Of a stretch of DNA of 64,000 nt, positions 1,274 through 40,827 are shown in pieces. The notes under the pieces are model-generated. The model was given only the letters and a program-made list of their open reading frames with translations, made no database searches and was not told the origin of the DNA. The translations under genes and the position numbers were made by a program. Position 1 is the first letter of the stretch; every line of letters starts with the position of its first letter. This stretch comes from Ostreococcus lucimarinus (taxonomy: Eukaryota): the NCBI GenBank assembly GCA_000092065.1, contig CP000583.1; one strand, 5' to 3'.

Positions 1274-2899
1274 CTACAATACACTCGATGACGGCGCGAA
1301 TTCGCCGGCGCTCGCTCGCAAACTAGACGCCCGCGCCATGGCGAGCTCGGGCGTGCGAATCGGCGACAGACCCTTCGCCTTAATCTTCGACGGCTTGAGC
1401 GACGATTCGTACTGCACGTCGTTCGTCTGCGGCGTGACTGACTCGACGTCTTCTTCGCTCTCGTTCCCTGGCAACAACGGCTCGTAGTGCGCCGCCTCTT
1501 CGTCGTCGTCAGAATCACTCTCACTCTCGTTCTCGCCGTTGTCATCGCGAGGCGACATCTCTTGTCGAGGCAACCACACGTGCACGCGTCCAGCGAGCCA
1601 CGCCACGCGCCACGCGTTCAGCGCCAACTTCGCCGTCCAAATGCCCTTCAGACTTACCAGCGGGCGATTCGCGAGATACAGCGTCGGCAAGAAAACCAAA
1701 CCAACCCCGGTGGCCATGACTTCGCGAACGAACGAGAAACTGTGCGTGGCGTAGATGAATCCATCATACACGAAAACCGCCGCGTTGATCGGCTGCGCGA
1801 GCACGAGCACTCGCCACACCCCCGAGCCGAGCAGCGCCTCTTTCGTTTTCGCGTCGCGCGTGAACACGCTCGGAATCGCCGATTCGCCCGCCACGAGCGC
1901 GGCGCTGAAGACGAATCCGGTGACGACGCCCCACGCGACGAGCGTGTGCGACAATCGCACGAGCTCATCCTTTCGACCGGCGCCGAACAAACGCGACCCG
2001 ATCACCGTCGCGCACGTCGCGAATCCGTCGACGACGTACGAGCACACCATCCACAGCGACACGACGATGTGGTGCGCCGCCAATCCGCTCGGCTCCAAGT
2101 TCCTCGCGGCGACGACCACCGCGACGAAGAACGAGCTCTGCAACAAAATCGACCGCGCCACCATGCTCGCGCCGTTCGCCAAAAATCCAAACGTCTCCGC
2201 CGCGCCCAACCGTCTCGCCGACGTCGCTCGCGGCGCGAGCGGCTCGTCCCAACCTCGCGGCGTCGTCGTCGACACCAACCACCACCCCAATCCCGCCTGC
2301 GCGACGCTCACCGCGAACGTTCCGACGCCGATCCACCGCATCTTCGCCGCGTCTCCCCTCCCCAGCCCCAGCGCCGCGAGCGTCGCCGCCGCGTCCGCCG
2401 CCGCCTTTCCCGCCGACCACCGCGTCGCCGTCTCCACCCTGCCGATCCCGCACACCGTCCCCATCGCGCTCTCGAACGCCATCGCGAACGGCGTCGCGCC
2501 CAGGACCCACGGGAACATCTCGTTCGCCAGCGCCGCGACTTCCGGCGTCAACCGAAACGCGCCTCGCGCGCTCGGCGTCAGCGTCGCCGCGCACGCGATC
2601 GCGCTCGCCGTCCCGCTCACCAGCGCCAGCGCCATCGCCAGCGCCGCGCACATCCGCGCGCGCTCGCGATCGTTCGCGCCCGCGCGCGCGCCGACCTCGG
2701 CCGCGACGCCGTCGGCGAGAAAGTTGAGCGCGCCCGCGCTCAGCCGCGCCACCGCGCGCGCGACGCCGAACGCCGCCTGCGCGTCGCTCGACGCGCGCGC
2801 GCCCACGAGCGCGAGCTGGAGCGCCTGCGACAGCGGCGCGGCGACGCATCGCGCCGCGCCGGCGAGCGAGACGCGCGCGAGGACGCCGCGGCGCGGCAT
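1274..2899 (-). CDS. MATE (multidrug and toxic compound extrusion) family efflux transporter.
   Basis: The product is a ~540 aa polytopic membrane protein with MATE-like conserved blocks (…FGAGRKDEL…, …VFVYDGFIYATHSFSFV…). The ATG at 2899 is the first M after the Arg-rich, low-complexity upstream part of the long ORF 1274..3823. The acidic C-terminal tail is typical of eukaryotic MATEs. Confidence 0.7.
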   Translation of the reverse strand: MPRRGVLARVSLAGAARCVAAPLSQALQLALVGARASSDAQAAFGVARAVARLSAGALNFLADGVAAEVGARAGANDRERARMCAALAMALALVSGTASAIACAATLTPSARGAFRLTPEVAALANEMFPWVLGATPFAMAFESAMGTVCGIGRVETATRWSAGKAAADAAATLAALGLGRGDAAKMRWIGVGTFAVSVAQAGLGWWLVSTTTPRGWDEPLAPRATSARRLGAAETFGFLANGASMVARSILLQSSFFVAVVVAARNLEPSGLAAHHIVVSLWMVCSYVVDGFATCATVIGSRLFGAGRKDELVRLSHTLVAWGVVTGFVFSAALVAGESAIPSVFTRDAKTKEALLGSGVWRVLVLAQPINAAVFVYDGFIYATHSFSFVREVMATGVGLVFLPTLYLANRPLVSLKGIWTAKLALNAWRVAWLAGRVHVWLPRQEMSPRDDNGENESESDSDDDEEAAHYEPLLPGNESEEDVESVTPQTNDVQYESSLKPSKIKAKGLSPIRTPELAMARASSLRASAGEFAPSSSVL

Positions 2900-2936
2900 C
2901 GCGCGTCGGCGTCTGACCGTCACACCGCGACGCGGA

Positions 2937-4189
2937 TGACGGCGCGCGCGCGACGCGACGCGCGCGACGACGACGGCGACGCGCGCGACGACGCGCGCCG
3001 GACGCGTTCGAGCGACGACGCGCGCCGGATGCGCGTCGCGAGGCGAAGACTGGACGAAGGCGCGCCCGCGGCTCGAACGACGGCGGCGCGCGTCGACGCC
3101 GCGCGGCGCGCGATCGGACGCGCGATCGCGCGCGCGCTCGATCAATTGGGCGCGTTCGAGCGCGGCGCGACGAAGCTCGTCGGGTTCGGCGCGGGATGGC
3201 TCGCGGTGCGCGCGCCGGCGGCGGCGTGCGGGTGCGCGGCGGGCGCGTACGGCGGCGGTTTGGCGGCGTGCGGCGCGTGCGCGCTGGGCGCGGCTTGGGT
3301 CGCGGCGCGAGGACCGATCAGGGCGGTGAAAGATTTGGTGATCGGGATGGCGCTGAGCGTGTTGCCGGCGGCGCTGACGGCGACGAGCGCGCTGAGCGCG
3401 TGGAGACGGGGGGCGACGACGCTGGACGGCGAGCGGACGAACGCGATGAGCGCGGACGCGGCGAGCGCGGACGCGATATCGGTCGTGGGACTGGCGCGCG
3501 CGCACTTTAGGTTTGATTTGATGGGAGAGCATCACGCCGCGCTGCCCGCGGAGGATGAGAAATACATGTACAAGGCTGGGGCGGAGGCGACGGGGACGGT
3601 TTGCGCGGTGCCGGTGACGTACGACGGATGGACGCGCGCGAACGCGGTGCCGCTGTGGTACGTGTGCGATAACGATTGGGCGGGGCACAGGGATTGCACC
3701 CAGGCGTACGAAGGCGATTACGACGCGCGCCGCGGGTGGTACGGGCTGCGTCCTTTGCGCAAGTGCTTGCGAGCGCCGCTCGACGCGCTCGACGCCGGCG
3801 CGACGGAGCTGCATTTTTTGCATTTGGATTTTCAGCAGTCATTCGAGCGCAAACACGCGCTGAGCGAGGGGGCGCTGATGCGTGCGAGCGTGCAGCACCA
3901 AGTCTCCATCGATCTCTCCGCGCCGCGCGTGTACTGGAACCCGATTCAAGAGCCGTGTTGCGCCGCGCTCGCCAAGGAGGACGACGCGCTCCTGACGGCG
4001 GTGACCGTCCTGAGCGTCTTACCGCTCGCGTACCTCGTCTATCGCGACATCTTGGAGGCGTGGAAAAAGAGGATCAACGTGGAGAGCACGAAGCGGGCGT
4101 TTTACACGCGCGCTGAGCTTTTGGGCGCGTCCCGGTTGAGCGGGGCGTCCCGCCGAGCGCCGCACTCGTCGACTCGTCGGCGGTCATGA
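2937..4189 (+). CDS. Hypothetical protein. The N-terminal half is hydrophobic and the C-terminal half is conserved-looking but unassigned (LWYVCDNDWAGHRDCTQAY…).
   Basis: This is the 3' portion of the long + ORF 1487..4189. From the ATG at 2937 the codon third positions are strongly G/C and use the same NNG preferences as neighbouring bona fide genes. I recognise no domain. Confidence 0.45.
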
Positions 4190-5171: not shown

Positions 5172-6485
5172 ATGCGCGTCCTGTCGCGCGTCGTCGCGCC
5201 CGCGCCGCTCGCGCGCGCGCGCGACGCCCGCGCGGCGTGCGACGCGCGACGACGCGCGGCGGCGGCGACGCGATCGACCGCGCGCGCGAACGACGGCGAC
5301 GACGCGCGACGACGCGCGGGCGACGCGAACGAACGGCGCGTGACGATGGAACGAAGCGCGATGAAGCGCGCGACGCGACGCGCGACGCACGTCGCGCGAG
5401 CGTCGAGCGCGGAGACGACGGATAAGCCGCTGGACCACGTGCTGGACAAGCTGCGCGCGCGAGGCAAGGACGCGGTGCAGGTGCTGATGCTGTTGAGCCT
5501 GTTCGCGTGCTGGTACGGGTTCAACATCGTGTTCAACATACATAACAAACAGATTTTGAAGAGCTTTCCGTACCCGGTGACGGTGACGCTGATCGAACTC
5601 GGCGTGGGGAGCGCGTTGATTTGCGCGATGTGGGCGAGCGGGGCGAAAAAGCCGCCGACGCTGACGAAGGAGATGCTGAAACCGATCGTGCCGTTGGCGG
5701 TGATTCACGCGGTTGGGAATTTGTTGACGAATGTTTCGCTTGGGAAGGTGGCGGTGTCGTTCACGCACACGATTAAGGCGATGGAACCGTTCTTTTCGGT
5801 GTTGCTCTCGGCGTTGTTCTTGGGGGATATTCCCTCGCTCGCCGTCGTCGGCGCGCTCGTGCCGGTTGTCGGCGGCGTCGCGCTCGCGTCCATGACGGAA
5901 GTCAGCTTTTGCTGGGCGGGCTTTTTGGCCGCCATGGGGTCGAACATCACGTTCCAGTCGCGAAATGTGCTGAGTAAGAAGATGATGGGGTTGTCGTCGA
6001 TCAAAGGAGCCATCGACAACATCAACTTGTTCAGCGTCATCACGATGTTGAGCTGCGTGGTGTGTCTTCCCATCGCCATCGGCCTTGAGGGTGTTCACTT
6101 CACCCCTTCCACTATAAGCGCGGTCGGCGTGAGCGTCCAAGAGTTGGCCAAGAGCTTGATGATTGCCGGTTTCTGCTTCCAAATGTACCAGCAAATCTCG
6201 TACATGATTCTTTCTCGCGTCAGCCCGGTGACGCACTCTGTCGGTAACTGCATGAAGCGTGTCACCGTCATCGTCGTCACGCTGCTGTACTTCAAGAACC
6301 CAGTTTCTCCGCTCAATATGGCGGGCACCGCTTTGGCCTTGAGCGGCGTGTTCTTGTATTCGAGAGCCAAGCGCGCTGAGGGAGACAAGAAAAAGGCGGC
6401 GGCGGCGACGCCGGCGTTCACTCGAAGCGACTCGGCGTACAATGATACGTTCCGCGCGACGACTGGCTTGAGCAACATCGAATAA
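5172..6485 (+). CDS. Plastidic triose-phosphate/phosphate translocator family (TPT/PPT/GPT) transporter with an Arg/Ala-rich transit peptide.
   Basis: Family blocks are present: …FPYPVTVTLIELGVG…, …AVGNLLTNVSLGKVAVSFTHTIKAMEPFFSVLLSALFLG…, …SNITFQSRNVLSKK…, …NCMKRVTVIVVTLLYFKNPVSPLN…. The ATG at 5172 is in frame. Upstream of it the long ORF 4443.. is an Arg-rich GC artefact. Confidence 0.85.
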   Translation: MRVLSRVVAPAPLARARDARAACDARRRAAAATRSTARANDGDDARRRAGDANERRVTMERSAMKRATRRATHVARASSAETTDKPLDHVLDKLRARGKDAVQVLMLLSLFACWYGFNIVFNIHNKQILKSFPYPVTVTLIELGVGSALICAMWASGAKKPPTLTKEMLKPIVPLAVIHAVGNLLTNVSLGKVAVSFTHTIKAMEPFFSVLLSALFLGDIPSLAVVGALVPVVGGVALASMTEVSFCWAGFLAAMGSNITFQSRNVLSKKMMGLSSIKGAIDNINLFSVITMLSCVVCLPIAIGLEGVHFTPSTISAVGVSVQELAKSLMIAGFCFQMYQQISYMILSRVSPVTHSVGNCMKRVTVIVVTLLYFKNPVSPLNMAGTALALSGVFLYSRAKRAEGDKKKAAAATPAFTRSDSAYNDTFRATTGLSNIE

Positions 6486-6669: not shown

Positions 6670-9600
6670 TCATACAGTTGGCGTCGTCGGGGTCGTCGGG
6701 GTCGCCGTCATGGGAGTCGAGTTTTTTGAGTTGGCTTTCGCCTTCAATCTTGCGACGTATTGATCGAGCAGCGCATTGATCTTTTGCTTGCGCGAGTCTG
6801 TAAGAAACGCGCTCGTGCCTTGTTCCGTGTTCTGGTCAAACTTCCTCGGGATCACAGTCATCACTTTAACCATGCTTTTTCGAACAATCGTTCTGAGTTG
6901 CGACTTGGTGAGGTCTTGAACGCTGAGCGTCGTCTTGATGAAGTGCAACACGCGTTGCGCGAGAAGCGTATCCGCCGCCACCTTTGGGAGCTTCGCTTTT
7001 GATGGCATTGTATTCTTTGAACACTCAGCTGGAGACACCGCAGAAGCGAGATCGGGACCGCTTTCAGGGGCGCTTTGCTTCTGCAACAAAGCTGCACGCA
7101 CATTTGAGTCAACCACCGGATCAGGGTTAGATTCAACCATCTCGGGCTTCGGCGGCGGCGGCGATGACGGTAAAAGAGTCGACGTTGGCAACTGAGCGCC
7201 TTCGCACTTCTTCTTGCACGCACGCTCGTGCGCGGCGAAGCCAGCGCCCTTCATCGACTTGTAAACCTGGCAGAACGAGCACGTTAGCATCTTCGCATCC
7301 ATGTCGCGCTTCTTCTTGCACGCACGCTCGTGCGCGGCGAAGCCAGCTCCCGGAGCGCCTGTGAAAGTTCTGCAGTACGAGCACGTGATCGGCTCCTTCG
7401 CGGGCGTTGAGCTCGGCGGCGGTTGCGTACGCGGAGCCGGCGGCGATGACGGTAAAGAAGTCGACGTTGGCAACTGAGCGCTTTCGCGCTTCTTCTTGCA
7501 CGCACGCTCGTGCGCGGCGAAGCCAGCTCCTGGCGCGCCTGTGAAAGTTCTGCAGTACGAGCACGTGATCGGCTCCTTCGCGGGCGTTGAGCTCGGCGGC
7601 GGTTGCGTACGCGGAGCCGGCGGCGATGACGGTAAAGAAGTCGACGTTGGCAACTGAGCGCTTTCGCGCTTCTTCTTGCACGCACGCTCGTGCGCGGCGA
7701 AGCCAGCTCCTGGCGCGCCTGTGAAAGTTCTGCAGTACGAGCACGTGATCGGCTCCTTCGCGGGCGTTGAGCTCGGCGGCGGTTGCGTACGCGGAGCCGG
7801 CGGCGATGACGGTAAAGAAGTCGACGTTGGCAACTGAGCGCTTTCGCGCTTCTTCTTGCACGCACGCTCGTGCGCGGCGAAGCCAGCTCCCGGAGCGCCT
7901 GTGAAAGTTCCGCAGTACGAGCACGTGATCGGCTCCTTCGCGGGCGTTGAGCTCGGCGGCGGTTGCGTACGCGGAGCCGGCGGCGATGACGGTAAAGAAG
8001 TCGACGTTGGCAACTGAGCGCTTTCGCGCTTCTTCTTGCACGCACGCTCGTGCGCGGCGAAGCCAGCGCCCTTCATCGACTTGTAAACCTGGCAGAACGA
8101 GCACGTTAGCATCTTCGCATCCATGTCGCGCTTCTTCTTGCACGCACGCTCGTGCGCGGCGAAGCCAGCTCCCGGCGCGCCTGTGAAAGTTCCGCAGTAC
8201 GAGCACGTGATCGGCTCCTTCGCGGGCGTTGAGCTCGGCGGCGGTTGCGTACGCGGAGCCGGCGGCGATGACGGTAAAGAAGTCGACGTTGGCAACTGAG
8301 CGCTTTCGCGCTTCTTCTTGCACGCACGCTCGTGCGCGGCGAAGCCAGCTCCCGGCGCGCCTGTGAAAGTTCTGCAGTACGAGCACGTGATCGGCTCCTT
8401 CGCGGGCGTTGAGCTCGGCGGCGGTTGCGTACGCGGAGCCGGCGGCGATGACGGTAAAGAAGTCGACGTTGGCAACTGAGCGCTTTCGCGCTTCTTCTTG
8501 CACGCACGCTCGTGCGCGGCGAAGCCAGCTCCCGGCGCGCCTGTGAAAGTTCTGCAGTACGAGCACGTGATCGGCTCCTTCGCGGGCGTTGAGCTCGGCG
8601 GCGGTTGCGTACGCGGAGCCGGCGGCGATGACGGTAAAGAAGTCGACGTTGGCAACTGAGCGCTTTCGCGCTTCTTCTTGCACGCACGCTCGTGCGCGGC
8701 GAAGCCAGCTCCCGGCGCGCCTGTGAAAGTTCTGCAGTACGAGCACGTGATCGGCTCCTTCGCGGGCGTTGAGCTCGGCGGCGGTTGCGTACGCGGAGCC
8801 GGCGGCGATGACGGTAAAGAAGTCGACGTTGGCAACTGAGCGCTTTCGCGCTTCTTCTTGCACGCACGCTCGTGCGCGGCGAAGCCAGCTCCCGGAGCGC
8901 CTGTGAAAGTTCTGCAGTACGAGCACGTGATCGTCTTCACATCCATCTCGTGCTTCTTCTGGCACGCGCGTTTGTGCGCAGCATACCCTGCGCCGCCGAA
9001 GCCCTCGTACTCATACACGTTGCAAAACACGCACCGCTTCAGGACCTTCTCAGTTACTTGCACCGGCTGGACCACTACGGGCGAGAACGTTCCTTGCTCG
9101 TGTTTTCGCTTGCACACACGCTCGTGCGCGGCGAACCCAGCGCCTTTTGCACTCGCGTAGACTTGACAGTGCGGACAAGTAAGTGTGTTCTTCTCCTTCT
9201 CGAGGCGCTTCTTGCACGCGCGCTCATGCGCGTAAAACCCGACACTTTTCACGGCTTCGTACGTGTGGCAATACGAACAAGTGAGCGTTTGCTTGCCTAA
9301 AGTCGCCTCAGCAGACAAGCAGGCTGGATCGTTCGGTATCGTAGTGGGTGCAATTTTCTCCAGAACTTTCCCCGGAAGCGCAGCGTGTGTCGACGTCGCC
9401 GGCGCTGGCACCGGCGCCGGCATGTCGACTGCGTCGCCGGGCGAGTTTGACTCGGAATTCCAATGCGCGATTGAAGTTTCATCGTCCGTAGAAGCATGTT
9501 TTACTTCGACTTCTGGCTGCGTCACTTCTTCATTGTCTTCTTCATTCGTCATCGCCACGTCTTCCGTCGGTGCGACGGCCTCCGTCTCCTCGTTGGTCGC

Positions 9601-10806
9601 GCGCTGCGTCTGCGTCACTTCTTCTTCCGCGGCGCCAAAAGTCTCTTCTTCCTTCTCGATCGTCTTCTTTTTCGGCACGCTGCTCGGGAACAAGAATTCG
9701 GCGCGAACTTCTGTGACTTGGGGCGAGTCTTCTTCTACGTCTGTCTCTGCGATTTCGTCATCCTCTTCGACTTCACCCACGTCTTGTGGCACCTCGATGT
9801 TGTCGTAGTCGTCTTCGGCGATGAAATCATCGACGACATCCTTCACCGCGGGCGCGATGGCGACTAAATCATCGTCCAGCAAACTCGGCGTGGGGTCGTA
9901 TTTGGGCTTGGGTTTCCTCTTTTGCCGCGGCTTCTTCACCTTCATCACCTGGTCGAATCCCGCCAAGTCACCCATGGGTTTGCGCTTCGAGCTCGGAAAC
10001 ATCATCGTAAGATCGAGCGCGGGTTCTTCGACGTGATCGCCCGCGCCCGGTGCGGCTTCCTCGACTTGATTCGCGCGCGCTCCTTCGTTCGCCTCCGCCG
10101 CGGTCGCCGTCGTCGTCGCGCCGCCCGCCGCCGTCGCCGTTCGCCGCTCGTCCTCGTCCTCGTCTTCGTCCGCCTCCTCCTCCTCTCGCACGAACCCCTC
10201 CACCAAGGCGTTGAAATCCATCGCATCGTCATCGTCCCCATCGACTAAATCATTCGCATTCTTCGTCGTCGTCTCGCCGTTCTTCTCGAAATCCACCACG
10301 ACGGTTTCCGTCTCCCTCGTCGCCGTCTCGCCGTCTCTCCCCTCCGTAGGCGCGCTCGCGAACAGCCGCTCCGCGATCTCCCTCGCGCGCACCACCGCGT
10401 CCATGGCGTCCTCGATCGTCATCCCTTCCGCGCCATCGTCGCTCCCTCGTCCCGTGAACGACGCCACCACCGCCTCGGCGTCGCCGTCTCGCGCGCCCCC
10501 GCGCGTCATCTCCTCCTTCACCCCTCGTTCGATCGCCGCGTCCGCGCGTCGTCGCGCCGCCTCGTGCGCCCGTATCGCCTCGTCCCGCGCCCGCTCGTAC
10601 GTCGCCCGCGCGTCGTCGCGCGCCGCGTCGTCGCCGCGCGCGTCCGCAGCCGTCGGACCCAAGAGAAATTCGAATCCGGCGGCGCGCGCGTGTCGCGCGA
10701 TCGCGATCGGCTCGAACGACGGCCCCTGGAGCCTGATGTACTTGCACACCAGCGCGATGTGCTTGGCGTGGTCCGCGCGCGCGGCGCTCGGCGAGCGCTC
10801 CGCCAT
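6670..10806 (-). CDS. Large (~1,378 aa) tandem-array zinc-finger protein. Its core is a run of C-x2-C-x12-H-x3-C (C2HC) fingers separated by Pro/Ser/Thr-rich linkers. The N-terminal region is acidic, and the C-terminal tail resembles a DEK-C/SAP-like helical DNA-binding domain.
   Basis: The unit ITCSYCRTFTGAPGAGFAAHERACKKKRESAQLPTSTSLPSSPPAPRTQPPPSSTPAKEP is repeated at least 10 times, with variant fingers (LTCSFCQVYKSMKGAGFAAHERACKKKRDMDAKM; LTCPHCQVYASAKGAGFAAHERVCKRK). The C-terminus …LLAQRVLHFIKTTLSVQDLTKSQLRTIVRKSMVKVMTVIPRKF… is DEK_C-like. I take the ATG at 10806 (MAERSPSAARADHAKHIALV…) as the start; upstream of it ORF 6670..11229 is Arg/Ser low complexity. Confidence 0.7.
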   Translation of the reverse strand: MAERSPSAARADHAKHIALVCKYIRLQGPSFEPIAIARHARAAGFEFLLGPTAADARGDDAARDDARATYERARDEAIRAHEAARRRADAAIERGVKEEMTRGGARDGDAEAVVASFTGRGSDDGAEGMTIEDAMDAVVRAREIAERLFASAPTEGRDGETATRETETVVVDFEKNGETTTKNANDLVDGDDDDAMDFNALVEGFVREEEEADEDEDEDERRTATAAGGATTTATAAEANEGARANQVEEAAPGAGDHVEEPALDLTMMFPSSKRKPMGDLAGFDQVMKVKKPRQKRKPKPKYDPTPSLLDDDLVAIAPAVKDVVDDFIAEDDYDNIEVPQDVGEVEEDDEIAETDVEEDSPQVTEVRAEFLFPSSVPKKKTIEKEEETFGAAEEEVTQTQRATNEETEAVAPTEDVAMTNEEDNEEVTQPEVEVKHASTDDETSIAHWNSESNSPGDAVDMPAPVPAPATSTHAALPGKVLEKIAPTTIPNDPACLSAEATLGKQTLTCSYCHTYEAVKSVGFYAHERACKKRLEKEKNTLTCPHCQVYASAKGAGFAAHERVCKRKHEQGTFSPVVVQPVQVTEKVLKRCVFCNVYEYEGFGGAGYAAHKRACQKKHEMDVKTITCSYCRTFTGAPGAGFAAHERACKKKRESAQLPTSTSLPSSPPAPRTQPPPSSTPAKEPITCSYCRTFTGAPGAGFAAHERACKKKRESAQLPTSTSLPSSPPAPRTQPPPSSTPAKEPITCSYCRTFTGAPGAGFAAHERACKKKRESAQLPTSTSLPSSPPAPRTQPPPSSTPAKEPITCSYCRTFTGAPGAGFAAHERACKKKRESAQLPTSTSLPSSPPAPRTQPPPSSTPAKEPITCSYCGTFTGAPGAGFAAHERACKKKRDMDAKMLTCSFCQVYKSMKGAGFAAHERACKKKRESAQLPTSTSLPSSPPAPRTQPPPSSTPAKEPITCSYCGTFTGAPGAGFAAHERACKKKRESAQLPTSTSLPSSPPAPRTQPPPSSTPAKEPITCSYCRTFTGAPGAGFAAHERACKKKRESAQLPTSTSLPSSPPAPRTQPPPSSTPAKEPITCSYCRTFTGAPGAGFAAHERACKKKRESAQLPTSTSLPSSPPAPRTQPPPSSTPAKEPITCSYCRTFTGAPGAGFAAHERACKKKRDMDAKMLTCSFCQVYKSMKGAGFAAHERACKKKCEGAQLPTSTLLPSSPPPPKPEMVESNPDPVVDSNVRAALLQKQSAPESGPDLASAVSPAECSKNTMPSKAKLPKVAADTLLAQRVLHFIKTTLSVQDLTKSQLRTIVRKSMVKVMTVIPRKFDQNTEQGTSAFLTDSRKQKINALLDQYVARLKAKANSKNSTPMTATPTTPTTPTV
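7190..9000. repeat. Near-perfect 180-bp tandem repeat array (at least 8 essentially identical units plus diverged flanking units), each unit coding one C2HC finger plus linker of the gene above.
   Basis: The anchor gcgcttcttcttgcacgcacgctcgtgcgcggcgaagccagc recurs at 7486, 7666, 7846, 8026, 8308, 8488, 8668 and 8848. Spacing is exactly 180 bp except one 282-bp step that spans a variant unit. This also explains the long antisense pseudo-ORFs 7133..8965, 7284..8045 and 8106..8867. Confidence 0.9.
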
Positions 10807-10847
10807 GACGACGCGATGTGACGCGGCGGCAGTGCGCGACGGTCCGG

Positions 10848-12398
10848 ATGGCGCGCGCGATGCGCGTCGCGACGACGCGCGCGCGAGAGACGCGCGCGAG
10901 GTGCGAGCGCGCGCCGAGCCGGCGCGCGCGCGCGCGCGCGGCGACGCGCGCGAGAAATCGCGCGACGCGCGACGACGGGGCGGATGACGTGTTCGGTGCC
11001 GAGGAGAGATTCGATGACGACGACGCGCGCGGGACGATCGGACGCGCCGTCGCGCGCGTCGCGGCGTGCGCGGTGACGCTGAACGCGCTCGGCGCGGACG
11101 CGGCGCTGATGGAGGGGACGGAGGTCGGTTGGACGAGGACGAGGACGACGGCGACGACGACGACGACGAACGACGCGCGCGACGACGACGCGTCGGCGCC
11201 GGAGGGGCGGTATAGGACGTACATCGCACCGGATGTCCCGCTCGGGGACGCCGCGGTGCGGTTGCCGATGCCAGCGCGCGAAGCCAAGAGAGACGGCGCG
11301 TACAAGACGGTGCAGGCGACGCAGCGGTTTACGGATGGCGAGCGCGAGACGGTGCGATTGTTTAATAACGCCAAGGCGAGCGTCGTGTACATCACCAATG
11401 TCGCCGTGCGCAGAGATGCGTTCACGTTGAATCTCACGGAACAGCCGCAAGGGGCGGGGAGCGGCATCGTCTGGGACGACAAGGGGCACATCGTCACCAA
11501 CTACCACGTCATCGACAAGGCGAATCAGTTGAAGGTGTCGTTTTTGCCGAATAAAGGCGGGGTGCAGAATCAGAAGACGTACGACGCCGCAATCGTTGGG
11601 TTCGACGACGATAAGGACATCGCCGTGCTGCAGGTGAACGACCCAGAGGCGCTGCGGGAGATGAAACCGCTCGTCATCGGAACGAGCGGAGACTCCATGG
11701 TGGGCCAGCGTGTCTTCGCGATCGGGAACCCGTTTGGGCTCGATCACACGCTCACAACCGGCATCATCAGCGGCCTCGGACGAGAGATTCAAAGCGGTAA
11801 CACCGGGCGCCCAATCGACGGCATCATTCAAACGGACGCGGCGATCAATCCCGGCAACTCGGGGGGCCCTTTGTTGAATTCGTCGGGACAGCTCATCGGC
11901 ATCAACACCGCGATTTATTCCGCGTCCGGGACGTCCAGCGGCGTGGGATTCGCCCTCCCGAGCGACATGGTGAGCGGTATCGTCGATCAAATCATTCGTT
12001 ACGGTCGCGTGACGCGTCCGATTCTCGGCGTCTCCTTCGCCCCCGACGGCGCGCTCGACCAGCTCGGCCTCGGCGGCGTGTTGGTGCTCGACGCTCGCGC
12101 GGGCGGTCCCGCCGCGCGCGCCGGCGTCCGCAGCACCACGCGCGACGAATCCGGCCGTCTCATCCTCGGCGACATCATCATCGAGCTCGCGGGCGAGCAA
12201 ATTCAAGACTCCAGCGATTTATACCGCACCCTCGACAAGCTCTCCGTCGGCGAAACCGTCGACGTGACGCTCTTGCGAGGCGTCGACAAAGTCTCCGCCC
12301 GCGTCACCCTCGACGACGTCAAGGACATGAAACCTCCGACCGCGTCCACGATCGTCATCCCGATGCGCACCAAGAAGTCTCCAAACTCGCCGTACTAG
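10848..12398 (+). CDS. Deg/HtrA-type trypsin-like serine protease with a C-terminal PDZ domain, probably organelle-targeted.
   Basis: The catalytic triad context is present: …HIVTNYHVI… (His), …DIAVLQV… (Asp), …GNSGGPLLNSSGQLIGINTAI… (Ser). A PDZ-like region follows (…LGVSFAP…GGVLVLDARAGGPAARAGV…). The listed ORF begins at a GTG at 10818; the first in-frame ATG is at 10848. Confidence 0.85.
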   Translation: MARAMRVATTRARETRARCERAPSRRARARAATRARNRATRDDGADDVFGAEERFDDDDARGTIGRAVARVAACAVTLNALGADAALMEGTEVGWTRTRTTATTTTTNDARDDDASAPEGRYRTYIAPDVPLGDAAVRLPMPAREAKRDGAYKTVQATQRFTDGERETVRLFNNAKASVVYITNVAVRRDAFTLNLTEQPQGAGSGIVWDDKGHIVTNYHVIDKANQLKVSFLPNKGGVQNQKTYDAAIVGFDDDKDIAVLQVNDPEALREMKPLVIGTSGDSMVGQRVFAIGNPFGLDHTLTTGIISGLGREIQSGNTGRPIDGIIQTDAAINPGNSGGPLLNSSGQLIGINTAIYSASGTSSGVGFALPSDMVSGIVDQIIRYGRVTRPILGVSFAPDGALDQLGLGGVLVLDARAGGPAARAGVRSTTRDESGRLILGDIIIELAGEQIQDSSDLYRTLDKLSVGETVDVTLLRGVDKVSARVTLDDVKDMKPPTASTIVIPMRTKKSPNSPY

Positions 12399-17177: not shown

Positions 17178-18191
17178 ATGTCGTTCGCGGATGAGCTGCG
17201 CGCCACGGCGCTCGCGCTGAGCGCGCCGGGCAAGGGAATCCTGGCCGCGGACGAGAGCACGGGGACGATCGGAAAGCGGCTCGCGTCGATCGGTGTCGAA
17301 AACGCGATTGAAAATCGAGTCGCGCTGCGCGAATTGCTCTTCAGCGCGCCGGGGTTCGAGAAGTACGTCAGTGGAGTGATACTGTTCGATGAAACGCTGC
17401 GATCGACGGGGAAGAGCGGGACGTCGTTCGCGGAGATGCTGCGATCGAGAGGCGTGACGCCGGGCATCAAAGTCGACGCGGGGACGCGAGCGCTCGACGC
17501 GTCGCCGAACGAAACCTTCACGCAAGGCTTAGATGGGTTGGCGGAACGCTGCGAAGAATATTACGCCATGGGCGCGCGATTTGCGAAGTGGCGCGCGGTG
17601 CTGACGATTGATGAGGCGAAAGGATTGCCGAGCGCGTTGGCGTTGGCGGAGAACGCGAACGCGTTGGCGAGGTACGCGAGCGCGTGTCAATCGCGAGGTT
17701 TGGTGCCGATCGTTGAACCCGAAATTTTGATGGACGGCGCGCACGGTATCGAAGTCTGCGGGGCGGTGACGCGCAGGGTGCTGGACGCGGTGTTTTCGGC
17801 GCTGCGTTTGCACGGCGTGCAGTTGGACGGGATGATTTTGAAGCCAAACATGGTGACGCCGGGGGCGAGCGCGAAGACGAGCGCGAACGTCGACGCCGAA
17901 GTCGCGCGAGCGACCGTCGCGGCGCTGTGTGACACCGTTCCGCCGTCAGTGCCGGGTATTTTGTTCTTATCGGGCGGACAGAGCGAAGAAGAGGCGACCG
18001 AGCGTTTGCGATTGATGAACACGACGCAAAAAGCCGATCGAGCGCCGTGGACGCTCTCCTTCTCCTACGGCCGCGCGCTTCAAGCCAGCTGCTTGAAGGC
18101 GTGGGGTGGTAAGTCCGAAAACGTGAGCGCCGCCCAAGCGGCGTTCTTAGACCGATGCAAATCAAACTCCGAAGCGTCGATCCGTCGCTAG
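17178..18191 (+). CDS. FBA: Fructose-1,6-bisphosphate aldolase, class I. There is no transit peptide, so it is probably cytosolic.
   Basis: The full-length 337 aa product has strong class-I blocks (…[18 protein letters not shown]…, …ILFDETL…, …[12 protein letters not shown]…, …LKPNMVTPG…). Confidence 0.95.
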
Positions 18192-37476: not shown

Positions 37477-40400
37477 CTACGCGACGATGTCGCCGGGCAA
37501 GCCGAGCTTTTCGACGAGCTTGGGGACGACGGCGCCGTCGTCTTTGTCCACCTCGCCGCGAAGATCGGCGAGTTTGACGCCGGAAGCTTTCAATAACGCG
37601 GGCATTTTGTCGGTGTCGTCGCCGGCGAGCGCTTGCACGCGGGCGAGAACGTGAGCGAAGATGGTGAGGGCGAAACCTTCGGCTAAGATGTACCCGGGGT
37701 CTTCCCCCTCCGGCGTGGCTTTACGAAGGGCATCGGCGAGGGAGGCGAGCGTGCAAGAGCCATCGATAACTGGTCCAGCGAGAGAGGCGGCGATGTGGTC
37801 ACCAGCCTTGGGCAAGTCGCACATGACATCTTCGATGTTGTTGAAGAGCGGCGCAAAACCTTCAATCAACTGAGCGCCAGACATCGGGCCGTCAGAGGCG
37901 GCGAGCGCGCGAACGAGCCCGTACGCAGCCTCCCAGTCCATGTCGCGACGCTCAAAGCTCGTCGTCAAGAAGTATTCGATGAACGCAACGATGCGTCGCG
38001 GGTCCCACGTTGCGATGACCTTAACGGCTTCGCTGGTGTCCTTATCGTCATAAAAGTACTCCGTCGTCTTCTTGCGCTCAGCAATGAAAGCTGCGTCGTC
38101 GACCATGGCCTTCTCCTCCGTCGCCACCTTTGGCACAGGTACCGCCGCAGGCTTAGACTCAGCCGCTGAAAGTGTGCCTCGCGGCTGCGGAATGCTCGAT
38201 CGAGCGTCCATCTCGCGTGCGCCGCCGCCGCCTCTGACATCACCTCCCCCACGCTCGCGCTCGTCGCGCACGCCACTACCACCCGCACCACGTCGATCGC
38301 CACCGCCGAATGCACCTCGCGATTCGGTGCGTTGGAATCCGCCTGATCGATCGTCGCCACCTCGTGGCGCGCCACGGCTCGGGGGACGATCAAAGTCGCC
38401 GCCTCGGCGACTGTCGCTTCGCGGCATGGCACCAAATGAACCAGTGCGCTCGGGGCGACCGCCGGCACGGCGCGTTTGCTCCATGGCTGCGCGTTGTGCG
38501 TCGCGGTGAACGTCTTCAATCTTCTTCGGGCCTTCTTCCTTGCGACGCTCGCGCCACCCCTTGGCGCGAGTGTCCATGACGTCTTGCAACATGAATCGAT
38601 GACGAGAAGACATCTCTTCAGATTTGCTCAACACTTCCATGCGGCGGAAGTACGCATCCATGTACGCCTTGGCTTTTTGGTGATCAAGTTGACCGCCAAC
38701 AGTAGTCATGAGCTTACACAAAGCCTCCACGTCTTCCTCGTTCGGAGTCTTTTCGCCCTCGCCTAGAAGCTTCATGATGCACGTATGCATAATGCGTTCG
38801 GTGAGCATTGACTTTTTGAATAATTCACCGATGAAACGAATGTTACCGAGCATGCGTCTGCGCGCCTGGAGAAGTCTGTCCTCTCTCTTCAGTTGCTTGC
38901 GTCGCTCTTCGAGCGCAAGCTCCTCCTCAGTCTTCGGCTTTGGCGGTTCATCGATTTCACCATCCTCGAGCTCCTTCTCAGTCTCGGACTTTTCTTCACC
39001 CTCTTCACCCTCTTTCTTGTCGTCGTCTTCATCGTCACCCGCTTCAGCCTTGGCGATGGCTTTGTCGCCAGATTCGAACTCTTCTTGGCACTTGTTAAGA
39101 AGTACGCGCTTGAACGTGATAGCTTGTTGTCCCTCCGGCGCAGCGGGATCTAAGAATTCTACGCCCTCGCTCAAGAAGCGATCAGAAAGCACGCGACACA
39201 ACTCGGCGTACAAAGAAGAGAAGGTGGGCTCTTGAAGCGCCTTTTCGAACAATTGTCCGATGAGTCCGACCAAAGTGATGGCTTCGGTGATGCCGACGTC
39301 GAGAAGCTTCTCGAGAAGCTTCTCAAAGTTATCAGGTGTAAGCTTGTTGAGAATCGCCTTGAACGAACGCTGACGTTTCTGTTCTTCATCGTCCACGGTA
39401 CCAATGACGTACTTGTTATCTGTCTTGTGCAACTTCGGGAGCTCGCCTGCTGGGATGCGATATTGCGACTGGTTGTATCCGCCGCCACCGCGACGATCGC
39501 CGCGACGACCACCTTCGCCCGCGGGCAACTGTCGATGCGCCCACTTATCATCTCCTTTTTTACCGTCGTAACCACCGCCACCGCGGCTTCCACCGCCTCG
39601 ACGACCGCCGCCACCGCCGCGACCGCCACCGAACGATTGCACTCCCGGCGGACAAATGAAACCAGGCACGGGCCAGTAGTCAATGTCATCAGGAACGGTC
39701 CAATTCGCTGGCGTTGTTTGTGCGATCGGGGCATCGCGCATGGCTTTGAGCTCATCCACAGTGTACTTGCCATCGGCAGGTTTCGCCGCGAGGGTGAAGT
39801 CTGTAATCGGCGGCGGCAAGCGCGAGCGCTTCACGTCGGCGGCGGATCCAACGTCAGAGCCAGCGTCGGAGCCGATGCTCGAGACAGATTCCGACGTCGC
39901 GAGCTGCACCCCAGCCACGGCTTCGGCGAGCTCCTCGACGACTTTGTGCTTGGGCGGTTCGGGCGCCTTGGGCGCTTCCTCTTGCTTGGGAGGCTGCGGC
40001 TTGGGCGCTTCGGGAGCCTTGCGCAAAATGTCCGCCGCCGTCGGCGCCACGGGTTTCACCGGCGCCGGCGCGGGTGCCGGCACTTCCGCGGCTTTCGGTG
40101 CGACCGGTTCGGGCGCGGGCGCGGGCGCGGGCGGCGCCGCGGGCTTGGCCGCCATCGCCGCAAAGTTGATCGGCGGCGGCACCGCCGGCGCGGACGCGGC
40201 CGGCGCGACTGGCGCCGCCGGCGCCGCCGGCGCCGGCGATGCGACACCCGCAGGCGCCGCCGCTGCGACAGCAGCGGGCGACGCGCTCGCCGCGGGAGGC
40301 GTCGACGACACCGGCTTCTCAACCTTGACCTCTTGCTTCGTCTTCGGGTTAACAATCTTGATCGCCTTGCTCGCCACCTTTGTCGGCGGCGTCGACGGCG

Positions 40401-40827
40401 TCGACGGCGGTTTGATCCCCGGCGGCTTCGCGTACGCCGGCATTCCCATCGGTGGCATTCCCATCATCATCCCCGGATGAAACGGCGCTCCTCCCTGCAC
40501 GAACATCTGCCCCGGAGCCATCCCCGGCGCGCCCGGCTTCCCGCCCGGCGGCATCATCCCCATCATCGGTCCTCCCGGCATCGGTCGACCCCCCGGCGGC
40601 ATCCCCGGCATCCCCATTCCCGGTCCTCCCACCCCGGGCTTTCCTCCCCCGCCCTTCGCCATGTTCATCGTCCCGAACATGAACTGTTGCGGCGGCATGC
40701 CGCTCCCCGCCGCGCTCGCGATGACCTTCTTCTCCTCCTCCGTTCCCTTCGCCCCCCCCCCGCTCGCGTTCCCGCGCGGTTGCGGCACTCCCGGCGCCTG
40801 ATTACGATTCGGCATCGCGCCCGACAT
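37477..40827 (-). CDS. EIF4G: Eukaryotic translation initiation factor 4G (eIF4G).
   Basis: The N-terminus is Pro/Gly/Ala-rich with a 4E-binding-like KYTVDELKAM. A MIF4G domain follows (…FKAILNKLTPDNFEKLLEKLLDVGI…LIGQLFEKALQEPTFSSLYAELC…), and there is a C-terminal MA3 domain (…VKVIATWDPRRIVAFIEYFLTTSFERRDMDWEAAYGLV…). Confidence 0.85.
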   Translation of the reverse strand: MSGAMPNRNQAPGVPQPRGNASGGGAKGTEEEKKVIASAAGSGMPPQQFMFGTMNMAKGGGGKPGVGGPGMGMPGMPPGGRPMPGGPMMGMMPPGGKPGAPGMAPGQMFVQGGAPFHPGMMMGMPPMGMPAYAKPPGIKPPSTPSTPPTKVASKAIKIVNPKTKQEVKVEKPVSSTPPAASASPAAVAAAAPAGVASPAPAAPAAPVAPAASAPAVPPPINFAAMAAKPAAPPAPAPAPEPVAPKAAEVPAPAPAPVKPVAPTAADILRKAPEAPKPQPPKQEEAPKAPEPPKHKVVEELAEAVAGVQLATSESVSSIGSDAGSDVGSAADVKRSRLPPPITDFTLAAKPADGKYTVDELKAMRDAPIAQTTPANWTVPDDIDYWPVPGFICPPGVQSFGGGRGGGGGRRGGGSRGGGGYDGKKGDDKWAHRQLPAGEGGRRGDRRGGGGYNQSQYRIPAGELPKLHKTDNKYVIGTVDDEEQKRQRSFKAILNKLTPDNFEKLLEKLLDVGITEAITLVGLIGQLFEKALQEPTFSSLYAELCRVLSDRFLSEGVEFLDPAAPEGQQAITFKRVLLNKCQEEFESGDKAIAKAEAGDDEDDDKKEGEEGEEKSETEKELEDGEIDEPPKPKTEEELALEERRKQLKREDRLLQARRRMLGNIRFIGELFKKSMLTERIMHTCIMKLLGEGEKTPNEEDVEALCKLMTTVGGQLDHQKAKAYMDAYFRRMEVLSKSEEMSSRHRFMLQDVMDTRAKGWRERRKEEGPKKIEDVHRDAQRAAMEQTRRAGGRPERTGSFGAMPRSDSRRGGDFDRPPSRGAPRGGDDRSGGFQRTESRGAFGGGDRRGAGGSGVRDERERGGGDVRGGGGAREMDARSSIPQPRGTLSAAESKPAAVPVPKVATEEKAMVDDAAFIAERKKTTEYFYDDKDTSEAVKVIATWDPRRIVAFIEYFLTTSFERRDMDWEAAYGLVRALAASDGPMSGAQLIEGFAPLFNNIEDVMCDLPKAGDHIAASLAGPVIDGSCTLASLADALRKATPEGEDPGYILAEGFALTIFAHVLARVQALAGDDTDKMPALLKASGVKLADLRGEVDKDDGAVVPKLVEKLGLPGDIVA

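What the first reader, a model, noticed from the sequence alone, without database searches (positions are those of the whole stretch)
6670..10806. Giant tandem-array C2HC zinc-finger gene built from near-identical 180-bp repeats
The central ~1.8 kb (about 7190-9000) is an almost perfectly periodic 180-bp array (anchors at 7486, 7666, 7846, 8026, 8308, 8488, 8668 and 8848). Each unit encodes one C-x2-C-x12-H-x3-C finger (CSYCRTFTGAPGAGFAAHERAC) plus a PSTS-rich linker. Diverged finger variants sit at both ends, and the C-terminal helical tail resembles a DEK-C/SAP-type DNA-binding module. The near-100% identity between units at the nucleotide level implies very recent expansion or concerted evolution, or possibly assembly collapse, so the true copy number is uncertain. 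I do not recognise this finger spacing as one of the common named families; it is closest to MYST-type C2HC. A chromatin or nucleic-acid binder with a variable number of fingers could be a rapidly evolving or strain-polymorphic locus.
Basis: seen in the sequence. Interest (0 to 1): 0.75.

Follow-up and report, generated by a model that had tools for sequence, protein, structure and literature searches.

The report
Lineage-specific zinc-finger minisatellite in Ostreococcus gene
One group of the marine picoalga Ostreococcus has inserted a run of 11-14 nearly identical zinc fingers, whose number differs between assemblies, into a conserved nuclear protein that in sister lineages has no fingers and that looks like a link between RNA polymerase II and the splicing machinery.

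Summary
Window 6670-10806 (- strand) is one 1378-codon ORF. It has 14 C2HC fingers: 3 diverged ones, then 11 encoded by 180-nt and 102-nt units that are 98-100% identical, including an 822-nt higher-order duplication. The window matches the Ostreococcus lucimarinus CCE9901 reference. The gene is XP_001416846.1 ('predicted protein'), whose model starts at Met100.

- The spacing is C-x2-C-x13-H-x3-C, not x12.
- The finger is a Cys-terminated variant of the classical C2H2 beta-beta-alpha finger. The closest solved structure is ZNF512B. It is not MYST-like.
- The C-terminal domain is an SRI-like (Set2-Rpb1-interacting) helical bundle, not DEK-C/SAP.
- The unannotated N-terminus is a SURP module.

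Syntenic orthologues in at least three other picoalgal lineages keep SURP, the central motifs and the SRI-like domain but have no fingers. The array is therefore a recent lineage-specific insertion.

Finger counts differ between assemblies: 14 here, 12 in two other chromosome-scale contigs, 11 in a sister lineage. Short-read contigs give 4-7, probably collapsed. Units are homogenised within each lineage (concerted evolution).

My best functional guess is a Pol II-CTD/spliceosome adaptor that gained a multivalent nucleic-acid-binding array. That function is inferred, not shown.

The parts
6670..10806 (-). Complete CDS, 1378 codons plus stop (stop at 6670-6672). The NCBI model XP_001416846.1 covers only 6673-10509 (from Met100).
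   Evidence: Translation. Exact match of P0064 (XP_001416846.1) to 6673-10509. The N-terminal 99 aa are conserved with in-frame indels in the relative L002 and in orthologues.
10654..10776 (-). SURP module (aa 11-51: ADHAKHIALVCKYIRLQGPSFEPIAIARHARAAGFEFLLGP)
   Evidence: The orthologue profile A2 hits only SURP structures in the PDB: SF3A1 at 4.3e-4, SUGP1/SF4 at 2.4e-3, SFSWAP at 0.01. Pfam Surp is the only family listed for this segment (E 0.22) and scores E 1.4e-3 in orthologue P0075. Both Pfam scores are below the gathering score.
9859..10014 (-). Most conserved central motif of the family (aa 265-316, DLTMMFPSSKRKP.GDL.GF..VMKVKK...PKPKY.PTP.LL.DDLVA), set in an acidic disordered region (aa 100-500: E 14.5%, D 11.3%)
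   Evidence: Invariant columns in the alignment of five orthologues; composition.
9706..9747 (-). Second conserved short motif, ETDVEEDSPQVTEV (aa 354-367)
   Evidence: alignment; coordinates.
9364..9381 (-). Single ALPGKV motif (aa 476-481) just upstream of the fingers. Fingerless orthologues carry 3-5 [FLM]PG[KR][PAV] copies in this segment.
8962..9279 (-). Diverged anchor fingers F1 (9214-9279), F2 (9112-9177) and F3 (8962-9033; x15 loop)
   Evidence: F1-F2 are under purifying selection against L002 (dN/dS 0.08).
7202..8940 (-). Near-identical coding minisatellite holding fingers F4-F14: nine GAPGAG-type fingers (seven followed by the 26-aa P/S/T-rich linker, giving 180-nt units; F8 and F13 followed directly by a short unit) and two 102-nt short units (F9 at 8038-8103, F14 at 7216-7281). 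It is organised as an 822-nt higher-order duplication.
6712..6993 (-). C-terminal SRI-like helical domain (aa 1272-1365)

Best explanation
This is a real, intact nuclear-protein gene of Ostreococcus lucimarinus.

Ancestral architecture, shared with syntenic orthologues in sister picoalgal lineages:
- an N-terminal SURP module, a protein-protein module otherwise found in splicing factors;
- a long acidic disordered region with two conserved short motifs;
- a C-terminal SRI-like helical bundle, the fold that Set2/SETD2 use to bind Ser2/Ser5-phosphorylated RNA polymerase II CTD.

The finger array:
- In the O. lucimarinus lineage only, an array of C2HC fingers was inserted into the disordered spacer before the SRI-like domain.
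- Each finger is a classical beta-beta-alpha finger with Cys as the fourth zinc ligand, spaced C-x2-C-x13-H-x3-C and followed by a KKKR basic tail.
- The array is encoded by a coding minisatellite of 102-nt and 180-nt units. It grows, shrinks and is homogenised by unequal recombination or gene conversion. As a result finger number (11-14) and unit order differ between assemblies, while units within one genome stay 98-100% identical.

Function (inferred, not shown): the protein bridges elongating Pol II (via the SRI-like domain) and spliceosomal partners (via SURP). The acquired array adds many weakly basic, flexibly linked zinc modules that bind nucleic acid, most likely nascent RNA, in a multivalent and largely sequence-non-specific way.
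For: Shown by tool results:
- ORF, array and unit identity.
- The window encodes three CCE9901 RefSeq proteins exactly.
- Only 14 proteins among 1.84 billion representatives match at E <= 0.001. The full-length ones (P0075, P0078, P0079, P0080) share the C-terminal domain and central motifs, and P0075 and P0079 also a recognisable SURP module, but none has fingers.
- The DegP-like protease | gene | TPT transporter synteny is kept in L001-L008.
- In 20 metagenome loci recovered with the C-terminal domain, all 5 lucimarinus-type loci have fingers. All 15 loci from three other lineages have none in any frame of the coding strand.
- SURP: PDB profile hits are exclusively SURP structures.
- Finger: the profile hits classical fingers. 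2gqj (ZNF512B) is best, and its first finger has the identical C-x2-C-x13-H-x3-C spacing. ZNF512B is described as pairs of an atypical C2HC finger and a typical C2H2 finger (PMC11602157). The AF2 model is beta-beta-alpha with pLDDT 89.
- Copy number: 14 (window), 12 (P0061/L003 and P0063, contigs of 957-962 kb, with different unit variants), 11 (L002).
- Concerted evolution: all L002 units share the substitutions I>L, Y>H, T>K, S>G and SL>LV relative to all window units. Units within a genome are nearly identical.
- Selection against L002: dN/dS is 0.02 for the SRI-like domain and 0.08 for F1-F2, so both are functional.

From the literature: SURP domains occur in splicing-related proteins and bind partners such as SF1 and SF3A3 (PMC9514218, PMC4666396). 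SRI binds Ser2/Ser5-phosphorylated CTD (PMC4872076, PMC4446442).
Against: - SURP and SRI both score below Pfam gathering thresholds: Surp 12-19 bits against 21.1, SRI 12.2 bits against 23.5.
- A profile of the C-terminal domain found no SRI entry in the PDB by sequence.
- No zinc binding, RNA or DNA binding, CTD binding, expression or localisation data exist.
- The helix positions that read DNA bases in classical fingers are Gly/Ala here (GAGFAAH), which argues against sequence-specific DNA reading but does not show RNA binding.
- C2HC variants such as the FOG fingers are protein-binding modules, so a nucleic-acid ligand is only a guess.
- The repeated long unit has dN/dS of about 0.9 against L002 (4 synonymous and 10 non-synonymous changes). 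This would also fit a weakly constrained insert.
- Finger counts from assemblies of unknown read type are not a population survey.
Confidence: 0.6

Rival explanations
1. The long array is an assembly artefact, with units spuriously multiplied or mis-joined in a repeat. The true gene would have only about 4-7 fingers, as most metagenome contigs show.
For: About 25 metagenome-derived versions have 4-7 fingers (830-984 aa). The window appears to be the single CCE9901 reference, so P0064 is not independent of it.
Against: The short versions come from k-mer assemblers (contig names k141_...). These cannot resolve 1.4-1.8 kb of 180-nt units that are 98-100% identical, so collapse is expected. Three independent long contigs carry long arrays with different internal variant orders: L003/P0061 and P0063 with 12 fingers, L002 with 11. 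P0009 keeps the short-finger-then-long-unit order that is specific to the window's internal structure.
Confidence: 0.07
2. It is a sequence-specific DNA-binding transcription factor or chromatin protein whose target specificity is set by the number of fingers.
For: The fingers are related to classical C2H2 DNA-binding fingers such as CTCF, ZBTB17 and ZNF512B. There is a basic KKKR tail after each finger. Copy number varies, and the repeated unit evolves quickly (dN/dS about 0.9). ZNF512B binds DNA and chromatin (PMC11602157, PMC13458389).
Against: The helix residues that would contact bases are invariant Gly/Ala in all 14 fingers and in the L002 lineage, so the fingers would all read the same thing, or nothing. 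Linkers are 12 or 38 aa, not the 5-residue TGEKP linker needed for contiguous DNA reading. The flanking SURP and SRI-like domains are RNA-processing and Pol II-associated modules.
Confidence: 0.15
3. The fingers are protein-protein interaction modules, as in the FOG/U-shaped CCHC fingers. The array would be a multivalent scaffold or condensate-forming platform rather than a nucleic-acid binder.
For: C2HC variants of the classical finger are known protein binders (established knowledge on FOG-1; not tested here). The fingers are separated by long P/S/T-rich disordered linkers with many SP/TP sites. ZNF512B overexpression aggregates chromatin in a zinc-finger-dependent manner (abstract of PMC11602157).
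Against: No partner is known. No FOG-type structure appeared among the profile or fold hits. The basic tail suggests a polyanion ligand.
Confidence: 0.13
4. The array is a selectively near-neutral passenger: a coding minisatellite that expanded inside a tolerant disordered spacer and does not contribute to the protein's function.
For: Orthologues function without it. The long-unit dN/dS is about 0.9. L002 carries a frameshift inside the array. Copy number varies freely.
Against: All four zinc ligands and the GAGFAAHERACKKK core are intact in all 14 window fingers, in all 12 of L003 and in the 11 of L002. F1-F2 have dN/dS of 0.08. The reading frame is kept through 1.8 kb in several assemblies. 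The L002 frameshift may be a long-read error.
Confidence: 0.05

Closest known systems
Atypical C2HC fingers of ZNF512B/KIAA1196 (PDB 2gqj) and classical C2H2 (TFIIIA-type) fingers in general
   Same: The first 2gqj finger has the identical ligand spacing C-x2-C-x13-H-x3-C. It is the best PDB profile hit (E 4.2e-5). The predicted fold is beta-beta-alpha. There is an aromatic residue after the second Cys and a hydrophobic residue three positions before His.
   Different: ZNF512B has four C2HC+C2H2 pairs. Here all 14 fingers are C2HC, are near-identical, and are separated by 12- or 38-residue linkers. The helix 'recognition' positions are Gly/Ala. The window protein has no Pfam zf-C2H2 hit.
PRDM9-type zinc-finger arrays encoded by coding minisatellites
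   Same: Finger units are head-to-tail and near-identical at the DNA level. They show concerted evolution within a lineage, copy-number and order differences between individuals or assemblies, and faster change in the repeated units than in the rest of the protein.
   Different: The unit is 180/102 nt rather than 84 nt, and the fingers are C2HC rather than C2H2. The variable residues lie in the beta-hairpin and linker, not at helix contact positions. The flanking domains are SURP and SRI-like, not KRAB/SET. No link to recombination is known. The comparison with PRDM9 rests on established knowledge and was not tested here.
SURP plus Pol II CTD-binding splicing-associated proteins (U2SURP/SR140 and CHERP: SURP + CID)
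   Same: They combine a SURP module with a domain of a kind that binds phosphorylated Pol II CTD. This suggests coupling of transcription and splicing (SURP; SRI-like).
   Different: Those proteins use a CID/RPR domain, not an SRI fold. They also carry RRM or G-patch domains, which are absent here. The U2SURP/CHERP architecture is cited from general knowledge, not tested here.
Set2/SETD2 SRI domain (PDB 2c5z, 2a7o)
   Different: There is no SET/AWS/WW context. Sequence identity is 10-16%, and the score is below the Pfam threshold. CTD binding is untested.
Pfam DUF7501 (PF24333), a family that includes the Haloferax volcanii protein HVO_1252
   Same: It is the only Pfam family whose whole-protein score passes its cut-off (92.4 bits against 27, 11 stretches).
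   Different: Each unit scores only 15.6-22.3 bits and covers positions 5-31/42 of a 58-position model. The only mention found in the papers library is a 'DUF7501 domain protein', HVO_1252, of the haloarchaeon Haloferax volcanii (PMC12091111). The summed score reflects repetition of a generic CxxC...HxxxC match.

Membership tests
Classical (TFIIIA-type) beta-beta-alpha zinc finger, C2HC variant | Four zinc ligands with spacing C-x2-4-C-x12-13-H-x3-5-(H/C) | tested here: met
   C-x2-C-x13-H-x3-C in 13 of 14 fingers and x15 in F3. The ligands are invariant in the 26-finger alignment A3.
Classical (TFIIIA-type) beta-beta-alpha zinc finger, C2HC variant | Beta-hairpin followed by a helix carrying the last two ligands | tested here: met
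   AF2 model ma309b1dd9cba has pLDDT 89, strands at residues 4-5 and 13-14, and a helix at 18-33. Foldseek matches are not significant; the best are the CHHC fingers of U11-48K and Gtsf1 (TM 0.53-0.67, E about 2-5).
Classical (TFIIIA-type) beta-beta-alpha zinc finger, C2HC variant | Significant sequence similarity to accepted members | tested here: met
   Profile A3 against the PDB gives 2gqj at 4.2e-5, ZBTB17 at 7e-5, CTCF at 3e-4 and ZNF32 at 1e-3. Of the 28 hits at E <= 10, 27 are C2H2 fingers. The related arrays in P0084 and P0086 score as Pfam zf-C2H2. The window protein itself gets no PF00096 hit.
Classical (TFIIIA-type) beta-beta-alpha zinc finger, C2HC variant | Binds zinc | not testable with these tools
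   Needs metal analysis of recombinant protein.
   No zf-MYST hit at E <= 10. No MYST chain appears among the PDB profile hits at E <= 10.
Pfam DUF7501 (PF24333) | Full-length match above the gathering score for one domain | tested here: not met
   Single units score 15.6, 17.8 and 22.3 bits against a cut-off of 27, and cover only positions 5-42 of the 58-position model. Only the sum over 11 repeats exceeds the cut-off.
SURP module (PF01805) | Sequence match to SURP profiles or structures, with the G-x-x-F-E ... F-x-F-L signature | tested here: met
   Profile A2 gives nine PDB hits, all SURP domains: SF3A1 at 4.3e-4, SUGP1 at 2.4e-3, SFSWAP at 0.01. The signature GPSFE...FEFL is present. Pfam scores are below gathering: 12 bits for the window and 19 bits for P0075, against 21.1. 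No structure model was made.
SRI (Set2-Rpb1 interacting) domain (PF08236) | Three-helix left-turned bundle superimposable on Set2/SETD2 SRI | tested here: met
SRI (Set2-Rpb1 interacting) domain (PF08236) | Sequence match above the Pfam gathering score | tested here: not met
   SRI scores 12.2 bits (E 0.24) in P0075 against a cut-off of 23.5, and is not listed for the window sequence. The PDB profile search found no SRI entry, and neither did Foldseek.
SRI (Set2-Rpb1 interacting) domain (PF08236) | Binds Ser2/Ser5-phosphorylated Pol II CTD repeats | not testable with these tools
   Needs peptide-binding assays.
Coding minisatellite with concerted evolution (PRDM9-like array dynamics) | Near-identical tandem coding units, differences in copy number and order between genomes, and units more alike within a lineage than between lineages | tested here: met
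   Units differ at 0-5 of 180 nt. Finger counts are 14, 12, 12 and 11 in four long contigs. There are lineage-wide fixed differences between all window units and all L002 units.
Coding minisatellite with concerted evolution (PRDM9-like array dynamics) | Positive selection at ligand-contacting positions | tested here: inconclusive
   dN/dS is 0.89 for the long unit, but from only 4 synonymous and 10 non-synonymous changes. The changes lie in the hairpin and linker, not the helix.

The most novel reading that the evidence does not exclude
One Ostreococcus clade recently grafted a self-expanding C2HC-finger minisatellite onto an otherwise undescribed SURP-SRI adaptor between Pol II and the spliceosome. 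Finger number would act as a strain-polymorphic tuning knob for co-transcriptional RNA handling, or for another fast-evolving interaction such as with prasinoviruses. That would make it a natural, datable case of new multivalent nucleic-acid-binding capacity arising by domain insertion plus repeat expansion.
Probability: 0.15. Interest if true: 0.7.

Novelty: new variant of a known kind. Interest (0 to 1): 0.42.

Why it matters
- The gene is annotated only as 'predicted protein', with a truncated model that hides its SURP module.
- The SURP / acidic disordered region / SRI-like architecture appears to be confined to a few picoalgal lineages: only 14 hits in 1.84 billion representative proteins. 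To my knowledge it is undescribed.
- The finger array can be dated (present in one clade, absent from syntenic orthologues) and differs between assemblies. It is therefore a clean natural example of how a zinc-finger array is born and expands inside a disordered spacer.
- Practically, the locus is a trap for short-read assemblies, which collapse it to 4-7 fingers. It could also serve as a strain marker for O. lucimarinus populations.
- The biochemical role is still inferred, so the finding is moderately rather than highly interesting.

Tried and rejected
- Full-length Pfam and PDB sequence searches gave only DUF7501 and noise. I rejected DUF7501 membership because every unit is sub-threshold and matches only part of the model. 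The only literature mention found is for a Haloferax volcanii protein.
- The search for homologous proteins with the C-terminal domain found only 2 near-identical fragments.
With a two-finger alignment it returned only two small C2H2 proteins.
- Foldseek of the 34-residue finger gave only non-significant CHHC-finger matches. I do not claim CHHC membership because the ligand pattern differs.
- A profile of the C-terminal domain against PDB sequences gave no SRI entry.
- A viral-contig scan for the finger pair gave one hit that proved to be a chance TFTGAPGAG match in a Cys/His-free phage structural ORF. I found no evidence of viral origin.
- A six-frame scan found no other C-x2-C-x11-15-H-x3-C motif elsewhere in the window or in orthologue loci L004, L005 and L007. 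No donor or remnant finger was found, and the origin of the first finger is unresolved.
- The prokaryotic promoter/terminator scan is irrelevant for this eukaryote.
- Literature searches for the accession numbers found nothing.
- The alternative-frame ORFs inside the array (610 aa at 7133-8965; two of 253 aa) are by-products of a stop-free repeat, not genes.

Full report
**1. Observation**

Window 6670-10806 (- strand) is one uninterrupted ORF of 1378 codons. Tandem Repeats Finder reports 180-nt arrays at 7304-8071 and 8126-8933 with 98-99% matches (scores 1494 and 1602). It also finds an 822-nt higher-order repeat (7150 against 7972, 97%).

A regular-expression scan of the protein finds 14 fingers spaced 34, 48, 36, 60, 60, 60, 60, 34, 60, 60, 60, 60 and 34 residues.
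- F1-F3 (8962-9279) are diverged.
- F4-F14 (7216-8925) come in two types. One is a GAPGAG type; seven of its nine copies are followed by a 26-residue P/S/T-rich linker, giving 60-aa, 180-nt units. The other is a short QVYKSMKGAG type (34 aa, 102 nt; F9 and F14).

Long units differ from each other at 0-5 of 180 nt.

**2. Source and gene model**

The window encodes three RefSeq proteins of Ostreococcus lucimarinus CCE9901 exactly:
- aldolase XP_001416560.1 at 17178-18188;
- the 'partial' phosphate translocator XP_001416557.1 at 5475-6401;
- XP_001416846.1 ('predicted protein', UniProt A4RTU6, 1279 aa) at 6673-10509.

The RefSeq model starts at Met100. The upstream 99 codons are in frame. They are conserved with in-frame indels in a diverged relative (L002) and in more distant orthologues, and they contain a recognisable domain (section 4). 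I therefore take ATG 10806 as the start. No paper in the searchable library mentions either accession.

**3. Is the array real, and does copy number vary?**

All near-identical proteins in the 15-billion-protein collection were compared.
- About 25 metagenome versions have 4-7 fingers (830-984 aa). Those traced to contigs come from k-mer assemblers (for example k141_754950). These cannot resolve 1.8 kb of near-identical 180-nt units, so I read the low counts as collapse.
- Two other chromosome-scale contigs (957 and 962 kb; P0061/L003 and P0063) have 12 fingers. Their unit variant orders differ from each other and from the window, and neither has an internal short finger.
- A more diverged relative (L002; about 91% nt identity in non-repeat coding sequence) has 11 fingers in yet another long/short order, plus one frameshift.

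The long array therefore exists in independent assemblies, and both its length and its order differ among them.

All L002 units share substitutions relative to all window units (I>L, Y>H, T>K, S>G, SL>LV, P>L), while units within each genome are nearly identical. This is the signature of concerted evolution or of post-split re-expansion. The true copy number in any one strain still needs long reads or PCR.

**4. What the protein is**

*N-terminus.* A profile of the N-termini of the window protein and its orthologues (A2) hits nine PDB sequences, all of them SURP domains: SF3A1 at 4.3e-4, SUGP1/SF4 at 2.4e-3 and SFSWAP at 0.01. The G-x-x-F-E...F-x-F-L signature aligns. Pfam Surp is the only family listed for this segment (E 0.22) and scores E 1.4e-3 in orthologue P0075. 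Both scores are just under the gathering score.

*Between the two.* There is an acidic disordered region (E+D about 26%) with two strongly conserved short motifs, DLTMMFPSSKRKP.GDL.GF..VMKVKK... at 9859-10014 and ETDVEEDSPQVTEV at 9706-9747.

**5. The finger**

A 26-finger profile (A3) hits the PDB almost exclusively at classical C2H2 fingers (27 of the 28 hits at E <= 10; the exception is a thioredoxin reductase at E 0.77).
- The best is 2gqj (ZNF512B/KIAA1196, 4.2e-5). Its first finger, CPTCNVVTRKTLVGLKKHMEVC, has exactly the C-x2-C-x13-H-x3-C spacing.
- ZBTB17, CTCF and ZNF32 follow.
- ZNF512B is described as four pairs of an atypical C2HC finger and a typical C2H2 finger (PMC11602157).

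The AF2 model of one finger is beta-beta-alpha with pLDDT 89. Foldseek gives only non-significant matches, the best being the RNA-binding CHHC fingers of U11-48K and Gtsf1.

Pfam's only above-threshold family is DUF7501 (92.4 bits summed over 11 stretches). Each unit scores only 15.6-22.3 bits against a cut-off of 27, over part of the model. The only mention of DUF7501 in the searchable papers is a Haloferax volcanii protein, HVO_1252. I do not file the finger there. No MYST match was found.

Two unidentified eukaryotic proteins (P0084 and P0086) carry arrays of 33-36-aa period of the same finger and score as Pfam zf-C2H2. The 34-aa unit is therefore the basic module, and the 60-aa unit is that module plus a P/S/T linker.

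**6. The array is a lineage-specific insertion**

An exhaustive phmmer search of a 5-finger version against 1.84 billion representatives returned only 14 proteins. The full-length ones (P0075 690 aa, P0078 615 aa, P0079 748 aa, P0080 509 aa) share the central motifs and the SRI-like domain, and P0075 and P0079 also have a recognisable SURP module. None has a finger. In the corresponding spacer they carry 3-5 copies of an [FLM]PG[KR][PAV] motif, of which the window keeps one (ALPGKV, 9364-9381).

They are orthologues by synteny. The order aldolase / TLC / FAD monooxygenase / DegP-like protease / this gene / TPT transporter / steroid dehydrogenase is kept in L001-L008.

A metagenome scan with the C-terminal domain returned 20 loci.
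- The 5 loci whose domain is 98-100% identical to the window all have fingers.
- The 15 loci from three other lineages (67%, 59% and 36% identity) have none in any frame of the coding strand.

No remnant finger exists in L004, L005 or L007, and no other such finger exists in the 64-kb window. A viral-contig scan gave only a chance hit. The donor of the first finger is unknown.

**7. Selection (window against L002, Nei-Gojobori)**

| Region | dN/dS |
|---|---|
| SRI-like domain | 0.02 |
| F1-F2 | 0.08 |
| Acidic region | 0.30 |
| First 60 codons | 0.43 |
| Short repeated finger | 0.52 |
| Long repeated unit | 0.89 (4 synonymous, 10 non-synonymous changes) |

The zinc ligands and the GAGFAAHERACKKK core are invariant in every finger of every lineage. 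The changes lie in the beta-hairpin and the linker. The anchor fingers and terminal domains are clearly constrained. The repeated units evolve fast, but the counts are too small to claim positive selection.

**8. Mechanism**

*Shown:* the gene, its architecture, the array, its restriction to one lineage, and its differences between assemblies.

*Inferred from family knowledge:*
- SURP modules occur in splicing-related proteins and bind helices of partners such as SF1 and SF3A3 (PMC9514218, PMC4666396).
- SRI domains bind Ser2/Ser5-phosphorylated Pol II CTD (PMC4872076, PMC4446442).

The ancestral protein is therefore most simply read as an adaptor between elongating Pol II and the splicing machinery. 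It would be analogous in logic to the SURP+CID proteins U2SURP and CHERP, but it is not a member of those families.

The inserted array adds 11-14 zinc modules. Each has net charge +5 and they sit on flexible linkers. The residues at classical base-contact positions are Gly/Ala and are identical in all fingers, and the linkers are far from the TGEKP type. I therefore favour multivalent, low-specificity binding of nascent RNA (or DNA) over sequence-specific DNA reading.

The rivals, with my confidence in each:
- protein-protein scaffold, 0.13;
- sequence-specific DNA/chromatin factor, 0.15;
- neutral passenger, 0.05;
- assembly artefact, 0.07.

**9. Novelty and verdict**

The finger type (an atypical C2HC version of the classical finger) and the array dynamics (a coding minisatellite, as in PRDM9) are known kinds. 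What is new, as far as these searches and my knowledge go:
- the SURP / disordered region / SRI-like family, which is confined to a few picoalgal lineages;
- the datable insertion and expansion of an all-C2HC array within it;
- the corrected gene model.

I rate it a new variant of a known kind, of moderate interest (0.42). Its family assignments (MYST-like finger, DEK-C/SAP tail) do not.

Noticed in passing
window 10510-10806 (- strand): The RefSeq model XP_001416846.1 starts at Met100 (10509). It omits 99 conserved N-terminal codons that contain the SURP module, so the public annotation hides the only recognisable N-terminal domain.
   Followed up: yes
window 10807-10971: The ATG of the finger gene (10806, - strand) and the candidate ATGs of the divergent DegP-like protease gene (10848 or 10860, + strand) are only about 40-55 nt apart. 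The start of the protease ORF is a (GC)n / CGCG-rich low-complexity tract (TRF rows 10851-10971). This implies either a tiny bidirectional promoter with overlapping 5' ends, or a protease start that lies further downstream.
   Followed up: partly
window 5475-6485 (+ strand): The neighbouring phosphate/PEP translocator is annotated as 'partial' (XP_001416557.1, 309 aa, 5475-6401). Metagenome gene calls for the same protein are 437 aa, and the window ORF runs on to 6485. That gene model also looks truncated.
   Followed up: partly
window 2001-4000 and 40001-42000: Two 2-kb stretches reach 72.8% G+C against about 60% for the window. The first coincides with long overlapping ORFs on both strands (1274-3823 on the - strand, 1487-4189 on the + strand).
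   Followed up: no
window 7133-8965, 7284-8045 and 8106-8867 (- strand, other frames): Long alternative-frame ORFs (610 aa and two of 253 aa) run through the repeat array. They are repetitive Arg/Ala-rich translations of the same stop-free units and are most likely not genes.
   Followed up: partly
L002 12500-12720: The 11-finger array of the diverged relative (ENA ERZ10646505 contig_19498) is split by a frameshift into an 863-aa ORF and a 590-aa ORF. This is either a long-read indel error or a pseudogenising mutation in that lineage.
   Followed up: partly
L004-L008 and L015-L029 (orthologue loci); window 9364-9381: Fingerless orthologues carry 3-5 copies of a short linear motif, [FLM]PG[KR][PAV] (for example FMLPGKPV), in the spacer where the finger array sits in O. 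lucimarinus. The most diverged lineage (L028/L029) carries one. The window protein keeps a single ALPGKV. The motif's function is unknown.
   Followed up: partly
P0084 (841 aa) and P0086 (540 aa), ENA metagenome proteins: These unidentified eukaryotic proteins have arrays of 33-36-aa period of the same C-x2-C-x12/13-H-x3-CK finger (for example LTCDHCHREDFLNKGALANHQRMCKHNPNR). They are the only other finger-bearing hits in 1.84 billion representatives, so this C2HC array type exists outside Ostreococcus.
   Followed up: partly
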